Origin: a virus
Lineage: Duplodnaviria > Heunggongvirae > Uroviricota > Caudoviricetes
Length of the DNA stretch: 18,152 bases
IMG/VR virus record: IMGVR_UViG_2645727555_000018
Coordinates: 1-18,152 of that record
Direction: 5' to 3' (one strand)
Below the pieces are notes generated by a model that was given only the letters and a program-made list of their open reading frames with translations, ran no database searches and was not told where the DNA came from. Below, one piece after another: positions 1 through 12,859 of this stretch (its first letter is position 1; each line of letters begins with the position of its first letter). A program made the translations under genes and the position numbers.

Positions 1-104
1 CATATAACCACCTGAAAGACAATGACATTGCCTGTTTTTATAACGGTAATTGCAGACCATGACAAGCCGCAGCCGTCAGGCTGCCTACTCGAAATCGCCC
101 ATAT

Positions 105-479
105 TTACCACCAGGCGCAGAAGGTCAGTCTGTTATTGTGAAAGTCGTGGTTCTTAATCAGATCTTCCACAAGCTCTTTCAACTCCCCCACATCATGCCA
201 GTAACCTTCATCGTACTCCTGACTGCCGAAGAAAAAACCTTCCCGGGTAGGCAAGTACTCTTCGCAATTACTTTCGTTTATGTGCATCAAATGAGCTTTC
301 AGAAGACAAATGTCATTCATCGTTAATTCTAAAAGCTCACAATTTTCGACTTCACCTACGTTGCGCTCCATCCACCCAACGAGCGCATTGAACTTACGGA
401 AGTAAGCAACCTGCTTTCTGGATGCCTCGTTATTCAGATCGTTTTTAGGCTGTGTCTCGATATAGATATCAAGTCCCAT
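105..479 (-). CDS. hypothetical protein (accessory, phage-like); the six-frame ORF runs to 521 but the SD-backed ATG is at 479
   Basis: Long minus-strand ORF. AAGGA lies 8 nt upstream of ATG(479). The alternative starts at 515/521 fall inside the predicted -10 element (TGTGAAAAT) of its own promoter. Confidence 0.5.
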   Translation of the reverse strand: MGLDIYIETQPKNDLNNEASRKQVAYFRKFNALVGWMERNVGEVENCELLELTMNDICLLKAHLMHINESNCEEYLPTREGFFFGSQEYDEGYWHDVGELKELVEDLIKNHDFHNNRLTFCAWW

Positions 480-509
480 GATGGTTTCCTTATTAAGTTG
501 CTTCAGTGA

Positions 510-552
510 AATCATTTTCACAAATCAGATAAGGCAGAAAACAAATTGTTAT
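510..552 (-). promoter_or_regulatory. promoter/operator module: dyad GAAAACAAATTGTT (536-550) plus extended -10 TGTGAAAAT
   Basis: Same dyad recurs at least 9 times in the window. Here it sits where a -35 would be, just downstream of the terminator at 561-588 and upstream of gene 105..479. Confidence 0.4.
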
Positions 553-560
553 CGGGCATA

Positions 561-588
561 ATAAAATGGCGCGGTTTGCGCGCCATTT
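561..588 (-). terminator. intrinsic terminator after gene 597..923
   Basis: Stem AATGGCGCG/CGCGCCATT (565-587) with loop GTTTG, followed on the minus strand by UUUUAU (561-566 plus-strand A-run). Confidence 0.6.
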
Positions 589-596
589 AAAGAGGA

Positions 597-923
597 TTAA
601 GCGAATACGCTTTCAGGGATTAAGGTGTCGGCAGGAATGCCAGAGGTAATGCGCAGACCGTACTGGCCAATCCAGGTGGTGCTGGTGTTCAGGCTGGAGG
701 CGAATACGGTGTTAACCATATTCATCATGGTTTCAAACACCTCTTCATCAACCTGGCGGAAGTAGTTCTCGATTTTCAGCAGCAGCGGGTCAGTTGCATC
801 GAGAATGGACTGGTATTGAGTCGCGTACTCGCCGCCGGAGGCATCACCTTTACGCACGATCGTACTGGCCTGGACTTCGGCACCAGTTTCGGTGTTGTAC
901 GTAACAACGGTGATTTTTGCCAC
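597..923 (-). CDS. hypothetical protein; probably the 3' part of a longer gene split at an A6 tract (see 961..993)
   Basis: GTG start at 923 with GAAGGTAAG SD. The reading frame stays open upstream to 989 and encodes protein-like sequence (KKLTVDVYYASETAEGKN) that resembles the downstream sequence. Confidence 0.5.
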   Translation of the reverse strand: MAKITVVTYNTETGAEVQASTIVRKGDASGGEYATQYQSILDATDPLLLKIENYFRQVDEEVFETMMNMVNTVFASSLNTSTTWIGQYGLRITSGIPADTLIPESVFA

Positions 924-960
924 ATTCTTACCTTCGGCGGTTTCAGAGGCATAGTAAACA

Positions 961-993
961 TCAACTGTCAGTTTTTTCGCGTTTAACGGTCAT
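961..993 (-). CDS. 10-codon ORF (MTVKREKTDS) with strong SD; likely the true 5' end of gene 597..923 joined by a +1 frame change at the A6 run
   Basis: GGAGAG 8 nt upstream of ATG(993). The A6 run (plus-strand T6 at 972-977) lies exactly at the junction between the two frames. Confidence 0.35.
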   Translation of the reverse strand: MTVKREKTDS

Positions 994-1021
994 TTCACTC
1001 TCCGTAGTGTATTGGTTATTT

Positions 1022-1058
1022 TTATATTCTATGATCGTAAGTATGTACTTACAATACA
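1022..1058 (-). promoter_or_regulatory. sigma70-like promoter (TTGTAA, 17 bp, TAGAAT) with palindrome GTAAGTA-TG-TACTTAC (1037-1052) in the spacer
   Basis: Read on the minus strand: TTGTAA GTACATACTTACGATCA TAGAAT, about 25 nt upstream of the SD for ATG(993). Confidence 0.35.
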
Positions 1059-1084
1059 GAAAAGCCCCGTAAGGATGGCGGGGC
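1056..1084 (-). terminator. intrinsic terminator after gene 1120..1431
   Basis: Stem GCCCCG/CGGGGC (1064-1069 / 1079-1084) followed on the minus strand by CUUUUCUG. Confidence 0.6.
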
Positions 1085-1119
1085 TGTCGTACTGTCGACT
1101 AATTACCACTTGCACATTA

Positions 1120-1431
1120 TCAGGCTATTGCCATCACTGATGCTCTCTGAATTTCTTGCTGGGCCACGCGGTTAACTTCCATCAAAGCCAGTTCGAGCTG
1201 ATGTTCCGGCCACATTCTTTGAAATGCCATCCAGCCTTTTCCACGCTGGCGACGAACATTCATTACATAACGAGTAAAGGTGTTTTTATCGAAAGACACC
1301 GCTGTTTCACGGAACAGACGAATAGAGGTTCCATTGGCAACGATGTCCAGCAAAGTTAATTGAGCAACCAGCGCAGGCTTCTCTTTTCTCTTCTGGTCTT
1401 TGTCCAGACCAAGAACCAATGATTTTTTCAT
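1120..1431 (-). CDS. hypothetical small basic protein (103 aa); ORF runs to 1473 but the SD-backed ATG is at 1431
   Basis: GGAG 5 nt upstream of ATG(1431). The 14 upstream codons are simply the translated promoter motif. Lys/Arg-rich N-terminal region. A terminator follows the stop. Confidence 0.55.
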   Translation of the reverse strand: MKKSLVLGLDKDQKRKEKPALVAQLTLLDIVANGTSIRLFRETAVSFDKNTFTRYVMNVRRQRGKGWMAFQRMWPEHQLELALMEVNRVAQQEIQRASVMAIA

Positions 1432-1478
1432 CACAACTCCGTAAACAACTTGTTTTCTCAATGGCGTAAACAATACCA
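1432..1478 (-). promoter_or_regulatory. promoter/operator module (dyad AAACAAGTTGTTT immediately upstream of SD)
   Basis: Minus strand reads CCATTGAGAAAACAAGTTGTTTACGGAGTTGTGATG; same module family as 1915..1970, 5147..5232, 16991..17040 and 17699..17755. Confidence 0.4.
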
Positions 1479-1548
1479 GTAAGAAAACGGCTACAAAGCA
1501 TAATGATCAGGCGCATGAGCGATATGCAGGTTCTTCCCTGCGGCTATA

Positions 1549-1575
1549 GAGAAATTAAGCCAGCAATGCTGGCTT
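1549..1575 (-). terminator. intrinsic terminator after gene 1585..1914
   Basis: Stem AAGCCAG/CTGGCTT with 5-nt loop (1557-1575), followed on the minus strand by AAUUUCUC. Confidence 0.45.
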
Positions 1576-1584
1576 TGGTTGGGA

Positions 1585-1914
1585 TTACGCGAATACCTCA
1601 AGAAACTCCTGAACGTCCCAATGCTGGACGAGGTGAAGATAGACCTTAGAAATCACGTCATTTTCGCTATCGCATGTGAAGTAGTACTTCTGGCTGCGGT
1701 TGTATGTGTCCACACAAAATTCGCTCATATCCATAAAGTCAGCATCTTCACCCATGTCGCAAATCATCAAAGCAGGTGCGTCATCACGAGTCATCAGCTC
1801 CAGCACCCATCTTGAATTAATCAGAGTGGAAGACCAACCTTCCAGCTCATAGAACTGGTCAAATTCTTTTTGAGTCAATTTCTTGATTTGGTTGATGTCG
1901 ATATTTGCAAACAT
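1585..1914 (-). CDS. hypothetical acidic protein (109 aa); ORF runs to 1935 but the SD-backed ATG is at 1914
   Basis: AAGGA 7 nt upstream of ATG(1914). The first 7 ORF codons are the translated promoter dyad. Confidence 0.55.
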   Translation of the reverse strand: MFANIDINQIKKLTQKEFDQFYELEGWSSTLINSRWVLELMTRDDAPALMICDMGEDADFMDMSEFCVDTYNRSQKYYFTCDSENDVISKVYLHLVQHWDVQEFLEVFA

Positions 1915-1970
1915 AAAGGAATCCTTAAACAACATGTTTTCTTGATGGTGTTATTATCGCAATAACACAC
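1915..1970 (-). promoter_or_regulatory. promoter/operator module: extended -10 TGCGATAAT followed by dyad AAACATGTTGTTT, then SD
   Basis: Minus strand reads TTGCGATAATAACACCATCAAGAAAACATGTTGTTTAAGGA. Almost the same string precedes the methyltransferase gene at 16991..17040. Confidence 0.45.
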
Positions 1971-2277
1971 AGGCGAAAAAGGATTTTATTCCGGTGAATG
2001 TGGTTTTGGCAGTGAGTTTTCAGGTTCAGTACCGAGTACACTTTTTACATTATTCTGATTTAGTGGCCGAAAGTGGCTGGTGGGCAGAATAATCCTCTCC
2101 CCGAAAACCTACTGAAATCGATTGTGACCCGTTGGCTGTCTGGCACAATTACGCTGTAGCTGGCATTCAGAGGGAATCCAGCGGTAAGCAAGTCCGCCTG
2201 CACGTGAGCGCCTCTCTTCTTCCCGCACATTACAGGTGGGTAGCCGCAACTCTCCCTCTCGCTATACCGGTACGCCA

Positions 2278-2424
2278 CCGTTCCTGAACCGGCATCGAGC
2301 CTTTTCCCGAAATCCACACAGGCAACTCGACCGTTTCCCTGAAAACCTCCAGCCGTTCCCCGAAGGCAACCCAGCCGTTTCTGTAGCGGGATGCAGCCTT
2401 TTCCCTGTATGGACCGAAGGCTGA
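2278..2424. repeat. array of six imperfect ~22-bp tandem direct repeats (consensus CCGTTYCCYGAA-N7-8-CAG); iteron- or centromere-like
   Basis: Units start at 2278, 2300, 2331, 2353, 2375 and 2397. Three are exactly 22 bp. The period is not a multiple of 3, so the overlapping ORF 2060..2566 is unlikely to be coding. Confidence 0.55.
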
Positions 2425-2460
2425 CCGTAGGGGTGTTACGGGGGATGGAATCAGGAGTTG

Positions 2461-2494
2461 AATAAATACGAAAAAGGAGGCGACACCCCTCCTT
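2461..2494 (-). terminator. intrinsic terminator at the 3' end of the G-poor noncoding segment
   Basis: Stem AAGGAGG/CCTCCTT (2474-2480 / 2488-2494) with 7-nt loop, followed on the minus strand by UUUCGUAUUUAUU. Confidence 0.5.
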
Positions 2495-3335
2495 CCCTCT
2501 CCACTTATACATACCTGGCTTCTTCGCTATACATGTTGTGTTTTCTTCGTGTTTTATCTGTCTCAACCTCTCTATAGGCGTTAATGCTCACTCCTTCCAG
2601 AACGTTCTATACGGCGACTATTTCTGTTGGTGAATTGGGTGTGTTGTTTTCTCTGTCGGTGTATGTGGTTTCGTTAGTTTTGCGGTGGTTCTTCTATGGG
2701 GTGTTCTCGTCGTTTTGGTGATTGTTCTTCTCCGTGTATGGAGTAATGGCAGGTGGGCGAATCCTTTCGTTATTGTGTTTGAGTTGTTTGTCTGGAGTGT
2801 GAAGGGCTTTTGTAGTTATTCGTGTATTGGGTAATGGCGTTTCCCGTGATTGTTCTGTTTCGTGTCTTTTGGGATTGAGAGAATCCTTGCGGTAACAGGC
2901 TTCGTTGGGGTTTCAGTGGTTCAGGTGTTTCTTCGCTGTTTGGGTAATGGCGTGTCGTGGGTATCGCGCGTATGAATATTTTCGGATTGCCTGTGAAAGT
3001 TAGGTTGGTTGTCCGGTAGCCTGGGGAGAAGAGGTGGGTCTTTTCGGTAGCCTGCCATAAAGAGGTTGGTTGTTTTGGGGAATGGCATGTGTGTTATTTA
3101 GTTGTTTTGTTATAGCTGAAAATAAGTTGTTTATATAGTTATGTAACGCAATGGGAGTGATTTTGAGCGTGTGTTTTTGTTGGTAGTGTGTTGGGTCGTC
3201 TGTGGTGAAAATTGGACGCTGTGGCGCTGTCTGCTGCGTAGAATTACGGGTATAAGAAGTGATGTGTGAATACGTCAATTTTTTAGACCAAATCGGGTGA
3301 AAGCGTTGACGTTTCGTTGATCTGTTATTTAGTTG
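2495..3335 (-). ncRNA. candidate long noncoding transcript, C/A-rich and G-poor on the minus strand; function unknown
   Basis: No convincing ORF in any frame. Plus strand is extremely G+T rich (for 2641-2700: G20 T30 C7 A3). Bounded by a degenerate promoter motif at 3336-3370 and the terminator at 2461-2494. Contains internal repeats GGGTAATGGCG (2744, 2830, 2943, 3081) and CGGTAGCCTG (3016, 3045). Confidence 0.25.
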
Positions 3336-3370
3336 TTTTCTTATTGGTATAAACAACGTTAACCTATTGA
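3336..3370 (-). promoter_or_regulatory. degenerate copy of the promoter module (TTGTTTTCTTATTGG half-dyad)
   Basis: Matches the right half of the module (CCAATAAGAAAACAA on the minus strand) but has lost the second dyad arm and has no SD or ORF behind it. Confidence 0.3.
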
Positions 3371-3485
3371 TATTTAAAGGTGTGATTGCAGGTATGGAAG
3401 AAGAGTAGTGGCGATCAACGGATTCTTATAGAAAAGAATCAAATTGTGACCGCCATTATCAACTGATTGATTAAGCTAATTACAC

Positions 3486-4715
3486 TCAAACATCCCCGTT
3501 CTTAATCCACTGCCTGACTTGCTCGTCTTGTGCGACTTCTTTCTCATGTTTGGCAATATACAAGTCTGGCAATAGGGGTGGAGCGAATTCAGGCTCTGTC
3601 GCACGCCACTTTTCATATGCGTCACGCATGGATTTCTCAACATTCCAATGCTCCAACTCTTGGTATTCAATCGGCCAGTTATCCTGCAATCTCTTCACTG
3701 CATTAGCCAGGTCGTATCGGAAGTAAGGATTAAGACCAATGAAATTACCAGCCAGCATGTCATCAACCTCCTTCACTCTGGCAATCTTAGAAAACTTACC
3801 AATAGCAATGTTGAGGTCCCAATCTGACACGAACAACAAAAGTGCTGCAAATGCCAGAAACTTAGCTTCCCCGTATGCTCTGTCGCTAACCGTTTTTGTC
3901 TGAAACTCAATGTAATTGCCCATCACAAAACTAGTAAGCTTACAGGTCTTACTTATCTCGTCCTCCAAATGCGATGGATCGAGAATTGTGCGGTCACGAT
4001 TATTGTTTATGTGTTCTAAGATTACAGCAATGTCTCTATGTGAGACTGAAATTTCACGCAATTGCTGGAGAGTCTTGATGTGAACTCTTAGCACCTCTTT
4101 GTCAATCGCACGCTTCCAAGAAAAACCAGGCACAGTAACCTGAATGGGCGCGAAAGGTAGAATATCAGGAGTTGTCCATGCTAGATATGCATCACGTAAC
4201 CCACTAATATAATAAAGCCAGTCTAAATGCTCGCTTTCTAACCATATTTCAAATGTGGAATCCTTTCGCTTATTGAAGAACCATTCCCTCATCTGCCACA
4301 TTTTTTCTTGAGTAAATATCCCTTCCTGTATGCCGGCACAGACCAGCTTTCGTATTACCTGCGAATACTTTGTTCGATCTTTTGTGAATGAGACAAGGTG
4401 CTGCTTCACCTCAGATGTTAGTCTATCTCCATAGAAATCACATGATGGATGATGGCCTTGACCATCTTCACCGGTAAATCTGAAATGCGCCTTCTTGTGA
4501 TAGCCACCATTCCTAGTGGCTCTAACGAACGAACCACCTCCAACTTTGCAAATGGGGCAGATGATATCGTCACGGGCAATAGCATGAACCGAGCTGTCAT
4601 CTAAATTCTTTAGCGCCAAGTACTGCTCAGGATCGACTTCTTTTTGTAACGATTTTGAAAAAGCGGTATCAGTCATTCCAAGCTCCGAGCAAGGGGTTAT
4701 TTGTTCAATTATCAT
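3486..4715 (-). CDS. hypothetical 396-409 aa protein with N-terminal Cys/His zinc-ribbon-like motif; AT-rich cargo gene
   Basis: Long ORF. Motif CPICK...(29 aa)...HHPSCDF. ATG at 4676 has a GGAG SD, ATG at 4715 has none. GC content visibly lower than neighbours. None of the shared promoter modules upstream. Confidence 0.6.
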   Translation of the reverse strand: MIIEQITPCSELGMTDTAFSKSLQKEVDPEQYLALKNLDDSSVHAIARDDIICPICKVGGGSFVRATRNGGYHKKAHFRFTGEDGQGHHPSCDFYGDRLTSEVKQHLVSFTKDRTKYSQVIRKLVCAGIQEGIFTQEKMWQMREWFFNKRKDSTFEIWLESEHLDWLYYISGLRDAYLAWTTPDILPFAPIQVTVPGFSWKRAIDKEVLRVHIKTLQQLREISVSHRDIAVILEHINNNRDRTILDPSHLEDEISKTCKLTSFVMGNYIEFQTKTVSDRAYGEAKFLAFAALLLFVSDWDLNIAIGKFSKIARVKEVDDMLAGNFIGLNPYFRYDLANAVKRLQDNWPIEYQELEHWNVEKSMRDAYEKWRATEPEFAPPLLPDLYIAKHEKEVAQDEQVRQWIKNGDV

Positions 4716-5288: not shown

Positions 5289-5307
5289 GCGAACAGAGGT
5301 TGCTTAA

Positions 5308-7341
5308 TTACTTAACCTGGTGGCCAGGTTTAGCACCAGCATCCGGGCTTAACAGGAAGATATCTTTCCCGCCGGGGCCAGCAGCCATCACCATGCCTTC
5401 AGAGATACCGAAGCGCATTTTACGCGGAGCCAGGTTAGCCACCATAATGGTGTGACGACCAATCAGTGCCTGTGGATCTGGATAAGCGGAACGGATGCCT
5501 GAGAAGACATTACGCTTTTCACCACCGAGATCCAGCGTCAGGCGAAGCAGTTTGTCAGAACCTTCGACAAACTCCGCGTTTTCAATCAGCGCTACACGCA
5601 GGTCAACTTTGGCGAAGTCGTCAAAGGTGATGGTTTCCTGAATCGGGTCGTCAGCCAGTGGGCCAGTTACCGGTGCAGCTGTGGCTTTCACTTCTTCTTT
5701 GGATGCTTCCACCAGTGCTTCCACCTGTTTCATATCGATACGGTTATACAGTGCCTTGAACGGATTCACTTTATGGCCCAGCAGCGGTTGCTGGATACCA
5801 TCCCAGGTCAGTTCTGTATTCAGGAATGCTTCTGCACGTTCAGTCAGTTTCGGCAGTACCGGTTTCAGGTACGTCATCAGCACGCGGAACAGGTTAATGC
5901 CCATAGAGCAAATCGCCTGCAGATCGGCATCGCGTCCTTCCTGCTTCGCCACCACCCACGGAGCCTGTTCATCGACATAGCGGTTAGCCAGATCAGCCAG
6001 CGCCATGATTTCACGAATCGCTTTACCAAATTCGCGGCTTTCCCATGCTTCACCAATCACTTCAGCGGCATCAGTAAAGGTTTTGTACAGTTGCGGGTCA
6101 GCCAGTTCGCCTGCCAGCACACCGTCAAAACGCTTATTGATAAAGCCCGCGTTACGGGACGCCAGATTCACCACTTTGTTCACGATATCGGCATTCACGC
6201 GCTGAACGAAATCCTCCAGGTTGAGATCGATATCATCAATGCGCGAAGAGAGTTTCGCAGTGTAGTAGTAACGCAGGCTGTCAGCGTCAAAATGATTCAG
6301 CCAGGTGCTGGCTTTAATAAAGGTGCCGCGAGACTTGGACATCTTCGCACCGTTCACCGTCACATAGCCATGAACAAATAGGTTGGTCGGCTTGCGGAAG
6401 TTGCTGCCTTCCAGCATGGCAGGCCAGAACAGGCTGTGGAAGTAAACGATATCTTTACCGATGAAGTGGTACAGCTCGGCGGTGGAGTCTTTCTTCCAGT
6501 ATTCGTCGAAGCTGGTAGTGTCGCCGCGTTTGTCGCACAGATTCTTGAAGGAACCCATGTAGCCAATCGGTGCGTCCAGCCAGACGTAGAAATATTTGCC
6601 CGGTGCGTTCGGAATTTCAAAACCGAAGTACGGCGCATCGCGGGAGATATCCCACTGTTGCAGGCCAGATTCAAACCACTCCTGCATTTTGTTTGCCACC
6701 TGCTCCTGCAACGCACCGCTGCGGGTCCATGCCTGCAACATTTCGCTGAAAGAGGGCAGATCAAAGAAGAAGTGTTCGGAATCACGCATTACCGGCGTAG
6801 CACCAGAAACTACCGATTTCGGCTCGATCAGTTCAGTCGGGCTGTAAGTCGCGCCGCAGACTTCACAGTTATCGCCGTATTGATCTGGCGCTTTACATTT
6901 AGGACAGGTGCCTTTTACAAAACGGTCCGGCAGGAACATGCCTTTTTCCGGGTCGTACAACTGAGAGATAGTGCGGTTTTTAATAAAACCGTTCTCTTTC
7001 AGGCGAGTATAGATAAGCTCAGACAACTGACGGTTCTCTTCGCTGTGCGTCGAGTGATAGTTGTCATAGCTGATGTTAAAGCCTGCGAAATCAGTCTGGT
7101 GTTCCTGACTCATTTCGCCAATCATCTGCTCCGGTGTGATACCAAGTTGCTGTGCTTTCAGCATGATCGGCGTACCGTGGGCATCGTCGGCACAGATGAA
7201 ATTAACCTCGTGGCCGCGCATTCGCTGGTAACGAACCCAGACATCAGCCTGGATGTGCTCCAGCATATGGCCGAGGTGGATTGAGCCGTTAGCGTACGGC
7301 AGCGCGCACGTCACCAGAATTTTCTTCGCGACTTGGGTCAT
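5308..7341 (-). CDS. metG: methionine--tRNA ligase (677 aa)
   Basis: N-terminus [29 protein letters not shown] with the class I HIGH-type motif (HLGH), the KMSKS motif (GAKMSKSRG) and a zinc-knuckle CPKC...CEVC. ORF extends to 7470 but the conserved start is ATG(7341). Confidence 0.97.
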
Positions 7342-7498
7342 AGTAGGCATTACTTCTTTGTAGTGAAAAGGGGCTTGATAGTAACAAAATGGCCTTATGT
7401 CTGCCATGTGATAACAGCATTTCTCATAAATGATTAAATGTCGCAGCTGGAGTACACTACAAGGCGACAATTGCGCAAATTAAAATAAAGGAGACGGG
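7342..7498. promoter_or_regulatory. divergent metG / apbC promoter region
   Basis: 157-bp AT-rich intergenic spacer between the two divergent start codons; AAGGAG SD precedes the apbC ATG. Confidence 0.5.
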
Positions 7499-8599
7499 AT
7501 GAGCGAGTCCAAATCGCCGGATGCCCTGAGAGCAATGGTAGCCGGTACGCTGGCTAATTTTCAGCACCCAACCCTGAAACACAACCTGACTACGCTTAAA
7601 GCGTTACACCATGTTGCGTTGATGGATGACACACTGCATGTCGAACTAATCATGCCTTTCGTGTGGAATAAGCCTTTTGAAGACCTGAAAGAGCAATGTA
7701 GTGGTGATCTGCTCCGTATCACTGGCGCAAAGGCTATTGACTGGAAGCTGTCGTACAACATTGCCACGCTTAAGCGCGTCAAAAACCAACCAGGCATTAA
7801 TGGTGTTAAGAATATTATCGCCGTAAGCTCAGGCAAGGGCGGTGTAGGCAAATCGTCCACAGCAGTAAACTTGGCACTGGCTTTGGCTGCTGAAGGTGCG
7901 AAAGTTGGTATTTTGGATGCCGATATCTATGGTCCATCAATTCCAACCATGCTGGGCGCGGAAAACCAACGTCCAACCTCACCTGACGGTACTCACATGG
8001 CACCTATCATGTCTCATGGCCTGGCAACCAACTCTATTGGTTATCTGGTCACCGACGACAATGCAATGGTGTGGCGTGGACCGATGGCCAGCAAGGCGCT
8101 GATGCAGATGTTGCAGGAAACTCTATGGCCTGATCTGGACTATCTCGTTCTCGATATGCCGCCGGGCACTGGTGATATTCAGTTGACGCTGGCGCAGAAC
8201 ATTCCTGTAACTGGTGCGGTTGTGGTAACTACGCCGCAAGACATCGCGCTGATCGATGCGAAGAAAGGCATTGTGATGTTCGAAAAAGTCGAAGTGCCGG
8301 TACTAGGTATCGTCGAAAACATGAGTGTGCATATTTGCAGTAACTGCGATCATCACGAGCCAATTTTTGGCACCGGTGGCGCACAGAAACTGGCCGAGAA
8401 ATACAACACGCAGTTGTTAGGCCAAATGCCACTTCATATCTCTCTTCGTGAAGATCTGGATAACGGAACACCAACCGTTATTAGTCGTCCAGATAGCGAA
8501 TTTACGGCTATTTATCGTGACCTCGCAGATCGCGTTGCTGCCCAAATGTATTGGCAAGGTGAAGTAATACCTGGCGAAATCGCATTCCGCGCAGTGTGA
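7499..8599 (+). CDS. apbC: iron-sulfur cluster carrier ATPase ApbC/Mrp
   Basis: P-loop GKGGVGKS, CSNC motif, C-terminal ...GEVIPGEIAFRAV; full-length 366-aa ORF. Confidence 0.95.
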   Translation: MSESKSPDALRAMVAGTLANFQHPTLKHNLTTLKALHHVALMDDTLHVELIMPFVWNKPFEDLKEQCSGDLLRITGAKAIDWKLSYNIATLKRVKNQPGINGVKNIIAVSSGKGGVGKSSTAVNLALALAAEGAKVGILDADIYGPSIPTMLGAENQRPTSPDGTHMAPIMSHGLATNSIGYLVTDDNAMVWRGPMASKALMQMLQETLWPDLDYLVLDMPPGTGDIQLTLAQNIPVTGAVVVTTPQDIALIDAKKGIVMFEKVEVPVLGIVENMSVHICSNCDHHEPIFGTGGAQKLAEKYNTQLLGQMPLHISLREDLDNGTPTVISRPDSEFTAIYRDLADRVAAQMYWQGEVIPGEIAFRAV

Positions 8600-8624
8600 T
8601 AAAAAGGTGGTGCAATGCACCACC
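8599..8624 (-). terminator. intrinsic terminator downstream of the umuD'-like gene, in the apbC 3' spacer
   Basis: Stem GGTGGTG/CACCACC (8606-8624) with loop CAATG, followed on the minus strand by UUUUUAUC. Confidence 0.55.
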
Positions 8625-11856: not shown

Positions 11857-11864
11857 GCGGAGCC

Positions 11865-12275
11865 TCAATATGCAAAATAGACCGTTGCCACGCCGTTATA
11901 GTGATCAAACGATACGGCGTTTACTTCATAGCTGGCAGGGAGCTTCGATCCGAGAACGTATCCGGGCCACGTTTTCCATGGAATTTCTCTGCGCTCACTA
12001 TCGCCATATACCGTACATCCCAGAGAGCCTACAGCTTCATTAGAACGCGTGCCGCACGTTATGAATCCCAGATTTTGCTTACTGCTCTTAATGGTGATTG
12101 GGTGAACGCTGGCTGATGCATTAGCAGCACGCTGTGCCTGTTGGTTTGTGATATTCGCAGAGTTCGCAGCAGCTACAGCAGCCGTAGTCGCGGCGGTAGA
12201 GGCTACAATAGCTGCTGAAGCATGCACTTGTTGGATATTCACCAACAATGCCGCGACAAAAATCATCTTCTTCAC
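11865..12275 (-). CDS. hypothetical secreted/periplasmic protein with N-terminal signal peptide
   Basis: GTG start with AGGAG SD. N-terminus MKKMIFVAALLVNIQQVHASAA is a typical Sec signal with AxA cleavage site. Mature part is Ala/Thr/Ser-rich. Confidence 0.6.
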   Translation of the reverse strand: MKKMIFVAALLVNIQQVHASAAIVASTAATTAAVAAANSANITNQQAQRAANASASVHPITIKSSKQNLGFITCGTRSNEAVGSLGCTVYGDSERREIPWKTWPGYVLGSKLPASYEVNAVSFDHYNGVATVYFAY

Positions 12276-12859
12276 TTGTCAGCTCCTTTGCGAATCTGTT
12301 CCGCCCATTCTTCAAGGGATTTCTCCGCATATTCACCGGACAGGCCATCAATCGGGTGCGGTTCATTAGCCAACTCTTCTTTCGCTGACAGAATCATGCG
12401 TGTAACGTCGAAAACTTCACGTAAAGACTTATTGATAAATCCGTGGTTGAAAGCAGCAGCAAGACGGCTTGCGGTATAGTTAACCCCCTCGTTGCGAGTC
12501 TCCGCACGTACTTCAGCCAGAAAAGCATCGGTGGCTGGAGTCTCCGTCAATTCGCTAACCCAATTATCTCCGTGTTCCTCGGCACACATCGCATCGAATG
12601 CTCGCTCAGATTCTTTCAGGGCTGCATTCTCCGCCGCTAATGCGTCTCTCTGCGCTCGCAACTTCTCAATTTCGGCAGCCATGTAGTAACCAACCATAGC
12701 GAAAGTGGCGAAAGGGTAGTCAGAATCATCAGGAGATACGGAGGCCATTAGCAGACCATCGTGCATGTTCTGGCTTCCATCAGTGATGGATACCGCATAA
12801 GAATCGCTGGTTTCCCGTTTATACAATACGACGACCGGGTTCTTGATTTTCTCTCTCAT
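12272..12859 (-). CDS. hypothetical protein with central coiled-coil-like segment (possibly Ead/Ea22-like)
   Basis: Heptad-like EIEKLRAQRDALAAENAALKESERA; TAATG overlap with the upstream gene. Confidence 0.55.
   Translation of the reverse strand: MREKIKNPVVVLYKRETSDSYAVSITDGSQNMHDGLLMASVSPDDSDYPFATFAMVGYYMAAEIEKLRAQRDALAAENAALKESERAFDAMCAEEHGDNWVSELTETPATDAFLAEVRAETRNEGVNYTASRLAAAFNHGFINKSLREVFDVTRMILSAKEELANEPHPIDGLSGEYAEKSLEEWAEQIRKGADK

What the first reader, a model, noticed from the sequence alone, without database searches (positions are those of the whole stretch)
923..993. Gene split across two frames at an A6 homopolymer behind a strong SD
A 10-codon ORF with a strong SD (GGAGAG) ends at 961. 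In the +1 frame the sequence reads straight into the 108-aa ORF, and the intervening codons encode protein-like sequence that resembles the downstream protein (TVDVYYASETAEG versus TVVTYNTETGAE). The two frames meet in the run GAAAAAAC. Removing one A gives a continuous 130-aa protein. This is a programmed +1 frameshift, a phase-variable homopolymer, or a sequencing or assembly indel.
Basis: seen in the sequence. Interest (0 to 1): 0.5.

Follow-up and report, generated by a model that had tools for sequence, protein, structure and literature searches.

The report
One-base homopolymer indel splitting a gene
A small conserved phage-plasmid gene is cut in two here by one extra A in a run of five, seen only in this draft assembly, so it is an ordinary sequencing slip or recent mutation rather than a programmed frameshift or genetic switch.

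Summary
SD GGAGAG (1002-997) and ATG (993-991) open a 10-codon ORF that stops at 963-961. The +1 frame runs without a stop into the 108-aa GTG ORF (923-597). The two frames meet in an A6 run (972-977).

Deleting one A gives a 131-aa protein (not 130). That exact sequence occurs on at least 1000 public contigs. It matches PHROG 2473 (function unknown) over residues 1-131.

The window is contig DF970488.1 of draft assembly GCA_001297725.1, a fragment of an SSU5/pECOH89-like E. coli phage-plasmid.

- **Run length elsewhere:** the run is A5 in 197 of 197 finished E. coli genomes with this allele, in 31 of 31 viral and metagenome contigs, and in 38 of 39 aligned relatives. Distant homologues have GAAAAT or GAAAAC.
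- **Other A6 record:** only one public record has A6, and it is full of homopolymer insertions.
- **Coding constraint:** homologues down to about 30% identity are single ORFs. The 22 codons upstream of the GTG have dN/dS of 0.19-0.37. The GTG itself is GTA or GTT elsewhere.

Programmed frameshifting and phase variation are therefore not supported. What remains is a private one-base insertion, either a base-calling error or a very recent slippage mutation. Only the reads can tell these apart. Interest is low.

The parts
597..993 (-). The whole disrupted gene. It is 397 nt here and 396 nt in relatives. It encodes a conserved 131-aa phage-plasmid protein of unknown function (PHROG 2473; equals WP_001717183.1 in relatives; homologues are SSU5 gp114 and phiKO2 Gp62).
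   Evidence: Relatives annotate one 396-nt CDS here. The repaired translation is identical to theirs. PHROG 2473 matches at E = 7e-56 over residues 1-131.
997..1002 (-). Shine-Dalgarno sequence GGAGAG, four nt upstream of the ATG.
   Evidence: Read directly. It is conserved in relatives, including SSU5 (GGAGA).
961..993 (-). Remnant 5' ORF: ATG plus 9 codons (MTVKREKTDS) and a TGA. The first 7 residues are the true N-terminus. The rest is out of frame.
972..977 (-). A6 homopolymer (T6 on the + strand), one base longer than the A5 of relatives. This is the lesion.
   Evidence: Alignments. 38 of 39 relatives lack one base here. An A6-only 40-mer finds 0 finished E. coli genomes and 1 plasmid, which is error-riddled. 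An A5-only 39-mer finds 197 genomes.
597..923 (-). 108-aa GTG ORF, equal to residues 24-131 of the intact protein (V24 read as fMet). AAGG lies 7 nt upstream and could act as a weak SD. The product would lack predicted strand beta-1.
   Evidence: The GTG is GTA or GTT in homologues, so it is not a conserved start.
1026..1054 (-). Promoter-like site TTGTAA-17-TAGAAT upstream of the SD. This is a consensus match only.
   Evidence: 1 site found against 1.9 expected in shuffles, so it is not significant on its own. The sequence is conserved in close relatives.

Best explanation
This is an unprogrammed one-base insertion (A5 to A6) in codons 6-7 of an otherwise intact, conserved 131-aa gene. It is private to draft contig DF970488.1 of GCA_001297725.1.

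The insertion moves the ribosome into a frame that stops after 10 codons. The remaining 108 codons are left as an orphan GTG ORF.

The extra base has one of two origins. It is either a homopolymer-length miscall or assembly error, or a very recent slipped-strand replication mutation that made a pseudogene. Sequence comparison cannot separate these. I put about 0.5 on artefact and about 0.4 on real mutation.

If the mutation is real, the following is inferred and not shown:
- Expression of the full protein is essentially lost.
- A trace could be restored because tRNA-Lys on AAA (A3-A5 of the run) can re-pair perfectly one base on (A4-A6). That gives exactly the wild-type MTVKREK-LTVD.
- RNA polymerase occasionally dropping an A would have the same effect.
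- A truncated 108-aa product lacking strand beta-1 might start at the GTG behind a weak AAGG.
For: **Intact ORF in relatives**
- Close relatives at 99% identity have A5 and one 131-aa CDS.
- The repaired protein is residue-for-residue identical to one seen on at least 1000 contigs. The 108-aa ORF was called on only 3-8 contigs.

**Run length**
- A5 in 197 of 197 finished E. coli genomes seeded by an A5-only probe.
- A6 in 0 genomes and A4 in 0 genomes.
- In PLSDB plasmids, A6 occurs once and A4 never.
- The one A6 plasmid is E. albertii CP099878, which carries 10 one-base insertions in 742 aligned bases.
- A5 in 18 of 18 viral and 13 of 13 metagenome contigs.

**The split is not ancestral**
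- 925 of 930 plasmid records and 22 of 23 phage records hold one uninterrupted match to at least 80% of the fused protein. This holds down to about 30% identity.
- Full-length family members align from residue 1-4.
- Codons 2-23 have dN/dS of 0.19-0.37.
- The homologous codons are GAA AAT or GAA AAC in distant relatives. The GTG is GTA or GTT there.

**Very recent or artefactual**
- The gene has no other change relative to the common allele.
- The window carries only one other private indel, also a homopolymer length change: G3 to G2 at 2162-2164, in 28 of 29 relatives. The same deeply covered 3.8 kb holds 5 private substitutions.

**Loss of the gene is tolerated**
- Independent disruptions exist elsewhere: K4 to stop in GCA_002291025.1, A4 in GCA_025593845.1, and Q80 to stop in CP022167.
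Against: Nothing argues against an unprogrammed indel as such. On its origin the evidence pulls both ways.

Against an artefact:
- The other 59 runs of at least 5 nt in the window agree with relatives over about 17.3 kb.
- G3 to G2 is not a typical long-homopolymer miscall.
- The 1.5-kb region around that second indel is naturally rich in indels among relatives.

Against a real mutation:
- It is seen in a single draft assembly and nowhere else.
- There is no secondary decay of the gene.

The sequencing platform could not be found.
Confidence: 0.92

Rival explanations
1. Phase-variable (contingency) homopolymer. Under this reading the A-run changes length at high frequency and switches the gene on (A5) and off (A4 or A6) within populations.
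For: Three lengths of the same run exist in public data. A4 is in GCA_025593845.1, an otherwise clean contig. A5 is the norm. A6 is in this window. The run is the only homopolymer of at least 4 nt in the 69 nt upstream of the GTG.
Against: - The tract is short (5-6 nt).
- 197 of 197 finished genomes, 31 of 31 viral and metagenome contigs and 38 of 39 aligned relatives are A5.
- Finished genomes show no A4 and no A6.
- Distant homologues interrupt the run (GAAAAT/GAAAAC).
- The A4 and A6 cases were found by asking for the truncated 108-aa ORF. That query can only recover lesions upstream of the GTG, so recurrence at this run is expected from ascertainment.
Confidence: 0.04
2. Programmed recoding. 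Under this reading the full protein is made from the A6 allele either by +1 ribosomal frameshifting on A-AAA-AAC or by transcriptional slippage. The split architecture would be the functional form.
For: tRNA-Lys can re-pair perfectly in the +1 frame, and the product would be exactly the wild-type sequence (read). A strong SD drives the short ORF.
Against: - No orthologue has the split architecture.
- The slippery run is absent from distant relatives.
- The 0-frame codon after AAA is an ordinary ACU, not a stop or rare codon.
- No SD-like stimulator lies just upstream of the run, where the sequence is AAACGCG.
- From general knowledge of dnaX in Thermus, mxiE and IS elements, A6 is below the roughly 7-9 nt at which transcriptional slippage becomes appreciable.
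- No Rfam element is present.
Confidence: 0.02
3. Two genuinely separate genes: a 10-codon leader peptide and an independently initiated 108-aa protein.
For: GTG with AAGG 7 nt upstream. Gene callers did call the 108-aa ORF on this and a few other contigs.
Against: - The GTG is GTA or GTT in homologues.
- The upstream 22 codons are under purifying selection in the fused frame.
- The family profile begins at the ATG.
- Every other contig with the 108-aa call has its own lesion upstream: a nonsense codon, A4, an N-gap or a rearrangement.
- Predicted strand beta-1 (residues 8-19) belongs to the sheet.
Confidence: 0.01

Closest known systems
Ordinary homopolymer frameshift: a 'frameshifted' pseudogene or a homopolymer-length miscall in a draft assembly
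   Same: A one-base length change in a short mononucleotide run. Intact orthologues differ only by that base. The repaired ORF is identical to the common allele. The change is private to one assembly.
   Different: Nothing distinguishes it. The only open point is whether the extra base is in the DNA or only in the record.
prfB (RF2) programmed +1 ribosomal frameshift
   Same: A short upstream ORF continues in the +1 frame, and the P-site tRNA can re-pair one base downstream.
   Different: There is no conserved split in orthologues, no stop or hungry codon in the A site, and no SD stimulator 3 nt upstream. The slippery run is not conserved.
Contingency loci: phase-variable homopolymers of Neisseria, Haemophilus and Campylobacter
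   Same: A homopolymer early in a coding sequence whose length decides the frame.
   Different: The tract is only 5-6 nt. Its length is fixed at A5 in essentially all strains. The tract is interrupted in homologues.
SSU5 gp114 (AFL47041.1), phiKO2 Gp62 (AAR83078.1) and PHROG 2473
   Same: The repaired protein belongs to this small family of proteins of about 130-145 aa from enterobacterial phage-plasmids and N15-like phages. It is 54% identical to SSU5 gp114 and 32% to phiKO2 Gp62.
   Different: The family has no known function. The window copy is interrupted.

Membership tests
Programmed +1 ribosomal frameshift (prfB type) | The split two-frame architecture is conserved in orthologues. | tested here: not met
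   All relatives, from 99% down to about 30% identity, are single ORFs.
Programmed +1 ribosomal frameshift (prfB type) | A slippery P-site codon followed by a slow 0-frame A-site codon (stop or rare), with an internal SD a few nt upstream. | tested here: not met
   AAA can re-pair at +1. However, the next 0-frame codon is ACU, and the upstream bases are AAACGCG with no SD-like element.
Programmed transcriptional slippage (Thermus dnaX, Shigella mxiE, IS elements) | A long A/T run (about 7-9 nt or more) conserved together with the out-of-frame architecture. | tested here: not met
   The run is A6 here, A5 in close relatives and A4 in distant ones. The length threshold comes from general knowledge, not from a tool.
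Phase-variable contingency locus | Tract length is polymorphic among and within strains at appreciable frequency. | tested here: not met
   - A5 in 197 of 197 finished E. coli genomes.
- A6 in 0 and A4 in 0 finished genomes.
- A5 in 31 of 31 viral and metagenome contigs.
- Within-strain heterogeneity cannot be tested without reads.
Frameshifted pseudogene or homopolymer indel | Removing or adding one base of a homopolymer restores an ORF collinear with, and homologous to, intact orthologues over its full length. | tested here: met
   The repaired ORF is 131 aa and 100% identical to the CP056300 and AP024133 proteins. The same protein is seen on at least 1000 contigs.
Sequencing or assembly artefact | The reads do not support the extra base. 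| not testable with these tools
   There is no read access. The indirect evidence is mixed. One further private homopolymer indel lies at 2162-2164, but the other 59 runs of at least 5 nt are concordant with relatives.
PHROG 2473 (phage protein family, function unknown) | A significant full-length match to the family profile. | tested here: met
   E = 7e-56, residues 1-131 against profile positions 1-132 of 139.

The most novel reading that the evidence does not exclude
The A-run at codons 6-7 is a recurrent on/off mutational hotspot of a dispensable phage-plasmid accessory gene, since A4, A5 and A6 are all seen in nature. The A6 'off' allele would stay leaky through +1 re-pairing of tRNA-Lys on A-AAA-AAC, which regenerates the exact wild-type protein. 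That would amount to a crude low-frequency expression switch.
Probability: 0.04. Interest if true: 0.3.

Novelty: already known. Interest (0 to 1): 0.08.

Why it matters
It matters little biologically. In practice this locus should be annotated as one frameshifted 131-aa gene, or corrected if the reads show A5. It should not be annotated as a leader peptide plus a 108-aa protein, and it should not be counted as a recoding or phase-variation candidate.

The case also shows that a strong SD followed by a short ORF and a homopolymer is the expected look of any N-terminal frameshift. It is not a signature of programmed recoding.

Tried and rejected
**Function of the protein.** Nothing was assigned.
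- Pfam, NCBIfam, PADLOC and PDB sequence searches gave nothing significant.
- The AFDB50 fold library was unavailable.

**Sequencing platform of GCA_001297725.1.** Two literature searches on the accession numbers returned nothing relevant.

**Structure prediction.** It was redone with database hits.

**Other searches.**
- A genome-contig scan for the locus found nothing, because that collection holds one genome per species.
- Rfam found no RNA element anywhere in the window.
- No tandem repeats or convincing iterons were found in the neighbouring gene-free 1.5 kb.
- My first script for private indels returned none because BLAST places the gap at different ends of the run. A per-event tally fixed this.

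Full report
**1. What is in the sequence**

The feature is on the minus strand.
- GGAGAG at 1002-997 is followed four bases later by ATG at 993-991.
- The ORF reads MTVKREKTDS and stops at TGA 963-961.
- The frame one base downstream is open from 991 onward. It passes GTG 923-921, where the mechanical ORF list starts a 108-aa ORF ending at 597.
- The two frames share the run G-AAAAAA-C at 978-971. The A6 run is 972-977.
- Deleting one A gives a 131-aa ORF beginning MTVKREKLTVDVYYASETAEGKNVAKITVV....
- An open 23-codon stretch is not in itself unusual (about 1 in 3 by chance), so the case rests on comparison with relatives.

**2. Where the window comes from**

- The region matches about 110-kb non-mobilizable E. 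coli plasmids of the SSU5/pECOH89 phage-plasmid type at 97-99.6% identity. It also matches the phages Cyrano, CMS-2020a and PhiR41_1.
- An exact-protein look-up of the 108-aa ORF returned an 18,152-bp contig, DF970488.1 of NCBI assembly GCA_001297725.1. Its end is the reverse complement of window 1-3923. The window is therefore a whole contig of a draft assembly.

**3. Relatives have one intact gene**

- Every close relative examined annotates one 396-nt CDS here (WP_001717183.1 and equivalents). They have A5 where the window has A6, and the flanks are identical.
- The repaired window protein is 100% identical to theirs. That exact sequence is recorded on at least 1000 contigs, while the 108-aa ORF was called on 3-8 contigs.
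- It matches PHROG 2473 (function unknown) over residues 1-131, at E = 7e-56.
- tblastn with the fused protein finds one uninterrupted match covering at least 80% of it in 925 of 930 plasmid records and 22 of 23 phage records. These include SSU5 gp114 (54% identity), Klebsiella phage-plasmids (about 35%), phiKO2 Gp62 (32%) and a Proteus phage (29%).
- In a protein alignment, M1, L8, Y14, A15 and S16 are invariant.
- An HMM search of 1.84 billion representatives finds only 36 relatives. The full-length ones align from their residue 1-4.
- Codons 2-23, the part upstream of the GTG, have dN/dS of 0.19, 0.19 and 0.37 against PhiR41_1, pP59A-2 and SSU5.
- The GTG is GTA or GTT in those homologues, so it is not a conserved start.
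This is one gene that is split.

**4. Is the run special?**

It is not.
- Probes built so that every 28-mer seed spans the whole run gave the following in finished E. coli genomes: A5 in 197 genomes, A6 in 0 and A4 in 0.
- In PLSDB plasmids, A6 occurs once and A4 never.
- The one A6 plasmid is E. albertii CP099878. It carries 10 one-base insertions in 742 aligned bases, so it is a low-quality record.
- A pattern allowing A4 to A8 found 18 viral and 13 metagenome contigs, all A5.
- Among 39 aligned relatives, 38 lack one base relative to the window. The 39th has an N-gap there.
- More distant homologues read GAA AAT or GAA AAC (Glu-Asn), so the run is only A4 and the Lys codon is not conserved.

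**5. Programmed recoding**

- None of the defining features is present. No orthologue has a conserved split.
- The 0-frame A-site codon after AAA is an ordinary ACU.
- No SD-like stimulator lies just upstream of the run.
- No Rfam element is present.
- From general knowledge, A6 is shorter than the runs used for programmed transcriptional slippage.
- One thing can be read directly from the sequence: tRNA-Lys on A3-A5 could re-pair on A4-A6. That would yield exactly the wild-type peptide, so a real A6 allele could be slightly leaky. This is inference and was not measured.

**6. Artefact or real mutation?**

Over about 17.3 kb aligned to the two closest plasmids, the window has only three indel events.
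- One is this insertion.
- One is a GC dinucleotide shared with other lineages.
- One is a one-base deletion at about 2162.

Against 29-39 relatives, exactly two indels are private to the window, and both are homopolymer length changes. They are A5 to A6 at 972-977 and G3 to G2 at 2162-2164 (28 of 29 relatives). The same deeply covered 3.8 kb holds five private substitutions.

That ratio, the absence of any other change in the gene, and the draft status of the assembly all lean towards a miscall.

Other points lean the opposite way.
- The other 59 runs of at least 5 nt are concordant with relatives.
- G3 to G2 is not a classic long-homopolymer error.
- The surrounding non-coding 1.5 kb is naturally rich in indels.
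- Genuine independent knock-outs of this gene exist elsewhere:
  - AAA to TAA at codon 4 in GCA_002291025.1.
  - A4 in the otherwise clean GCA_025593845.1 contig.
  - CAG to TAG at Q80 in CP022167.

The sequencing platform could not be traced. I put artefact at about 0.5 and real recent mutation at about 0.4. Only the reads can decide.

**7. Consequence if real**

- An AlphaFold model of the intact protein has pLDDT 79 and pTM 0.74, from a 6-sequence alignment.
- It predicts four long antiparallel strands (8-19, 22-33, 39-50, 53-63), two helices (69-79, 83-100) and a fifth strand (113-120).
- A product started at the GTG (residue 24) would lack strand 1 and the start of strand 2. It would probably not fold properly (inference).
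- No function could be assigned.

**8. Verdict**

This is an ordinary one-base homopolymer lesion in a conserved hypothetical gene of a phage-plasmid, private to one draft contig. Interest is low.

Noticed in passing
window 2162-2164: A second private one-base homopolymer change in this contig. The window has GG where 28 of 29 relatives have GGG. It lies in a stretch with no annotated gene. It bears on whether the contig carries homopolymer miscalls.
   Followed up: partly
window about 1940-3480: About 1.5 kb with no CDS annotated in any relative examined. It is rich in indel polymorphism between relatives. It has no Rfam hit, no tandem repeats and only weak direct repeats. Its role is unknown; it might be an origin, a partition site or a regulatory region.
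   Followed up: partly
window 11858-12500: The segment between the two BLAST pieces is replaced relative to the closest plasmids. About 641 nt here correspond to about 853 nt in NZ_CP027358 and pECOH89. This looks like a local mosaic exchange.
   Followed up: no
L045 (GCA_002291025.1) 2895-3025; L046 (GCA_025593845.1) 2895-3025; L025 (CP022167) 575-1025: The same gene is independently disrupted in other plasmids: AAA to TAA at codon 4, an A5 to A4 deletion in the same run, and CAG to TAG at Q80. The gene appears dispensable for plasmid carriage.
   Followed up: partly
L024 (E. albertii plasmid NZ_CP099878.1) 1-1241: This public record is riddled with one-base homopolymer insertions (10 in 742 bases, and more upstream). 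Its genes in this region are fragmented, so it should not be used as evidence of natural variation.
   Followed up: yes
window 1059-1085 and 560-584 (minus strand): GC-rich hairpins followed by T-runs flank the gene. One is AGCCCCG-9 nt-CGGGGCT-TTTT, downstream of the preceding gene. The other is GGCGCG-CAAAC-CGCGCC-ATTTTATT, after the stop codon. Together with a promoter-like site at 1054-1026, they suggest each small gene here is its own transcription unit. The hairpins were read by eye; the scan did not list them.
   Followed up: no
window about 5300-8600 (by alignment to L004/L005): In the relatives' annotation the phage-plasmid carries full-length metG (methionine-tRNA ligase) and apbC homologues. 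These are unusual cargo, typical of SSU5-like elements.
   Followed up: no
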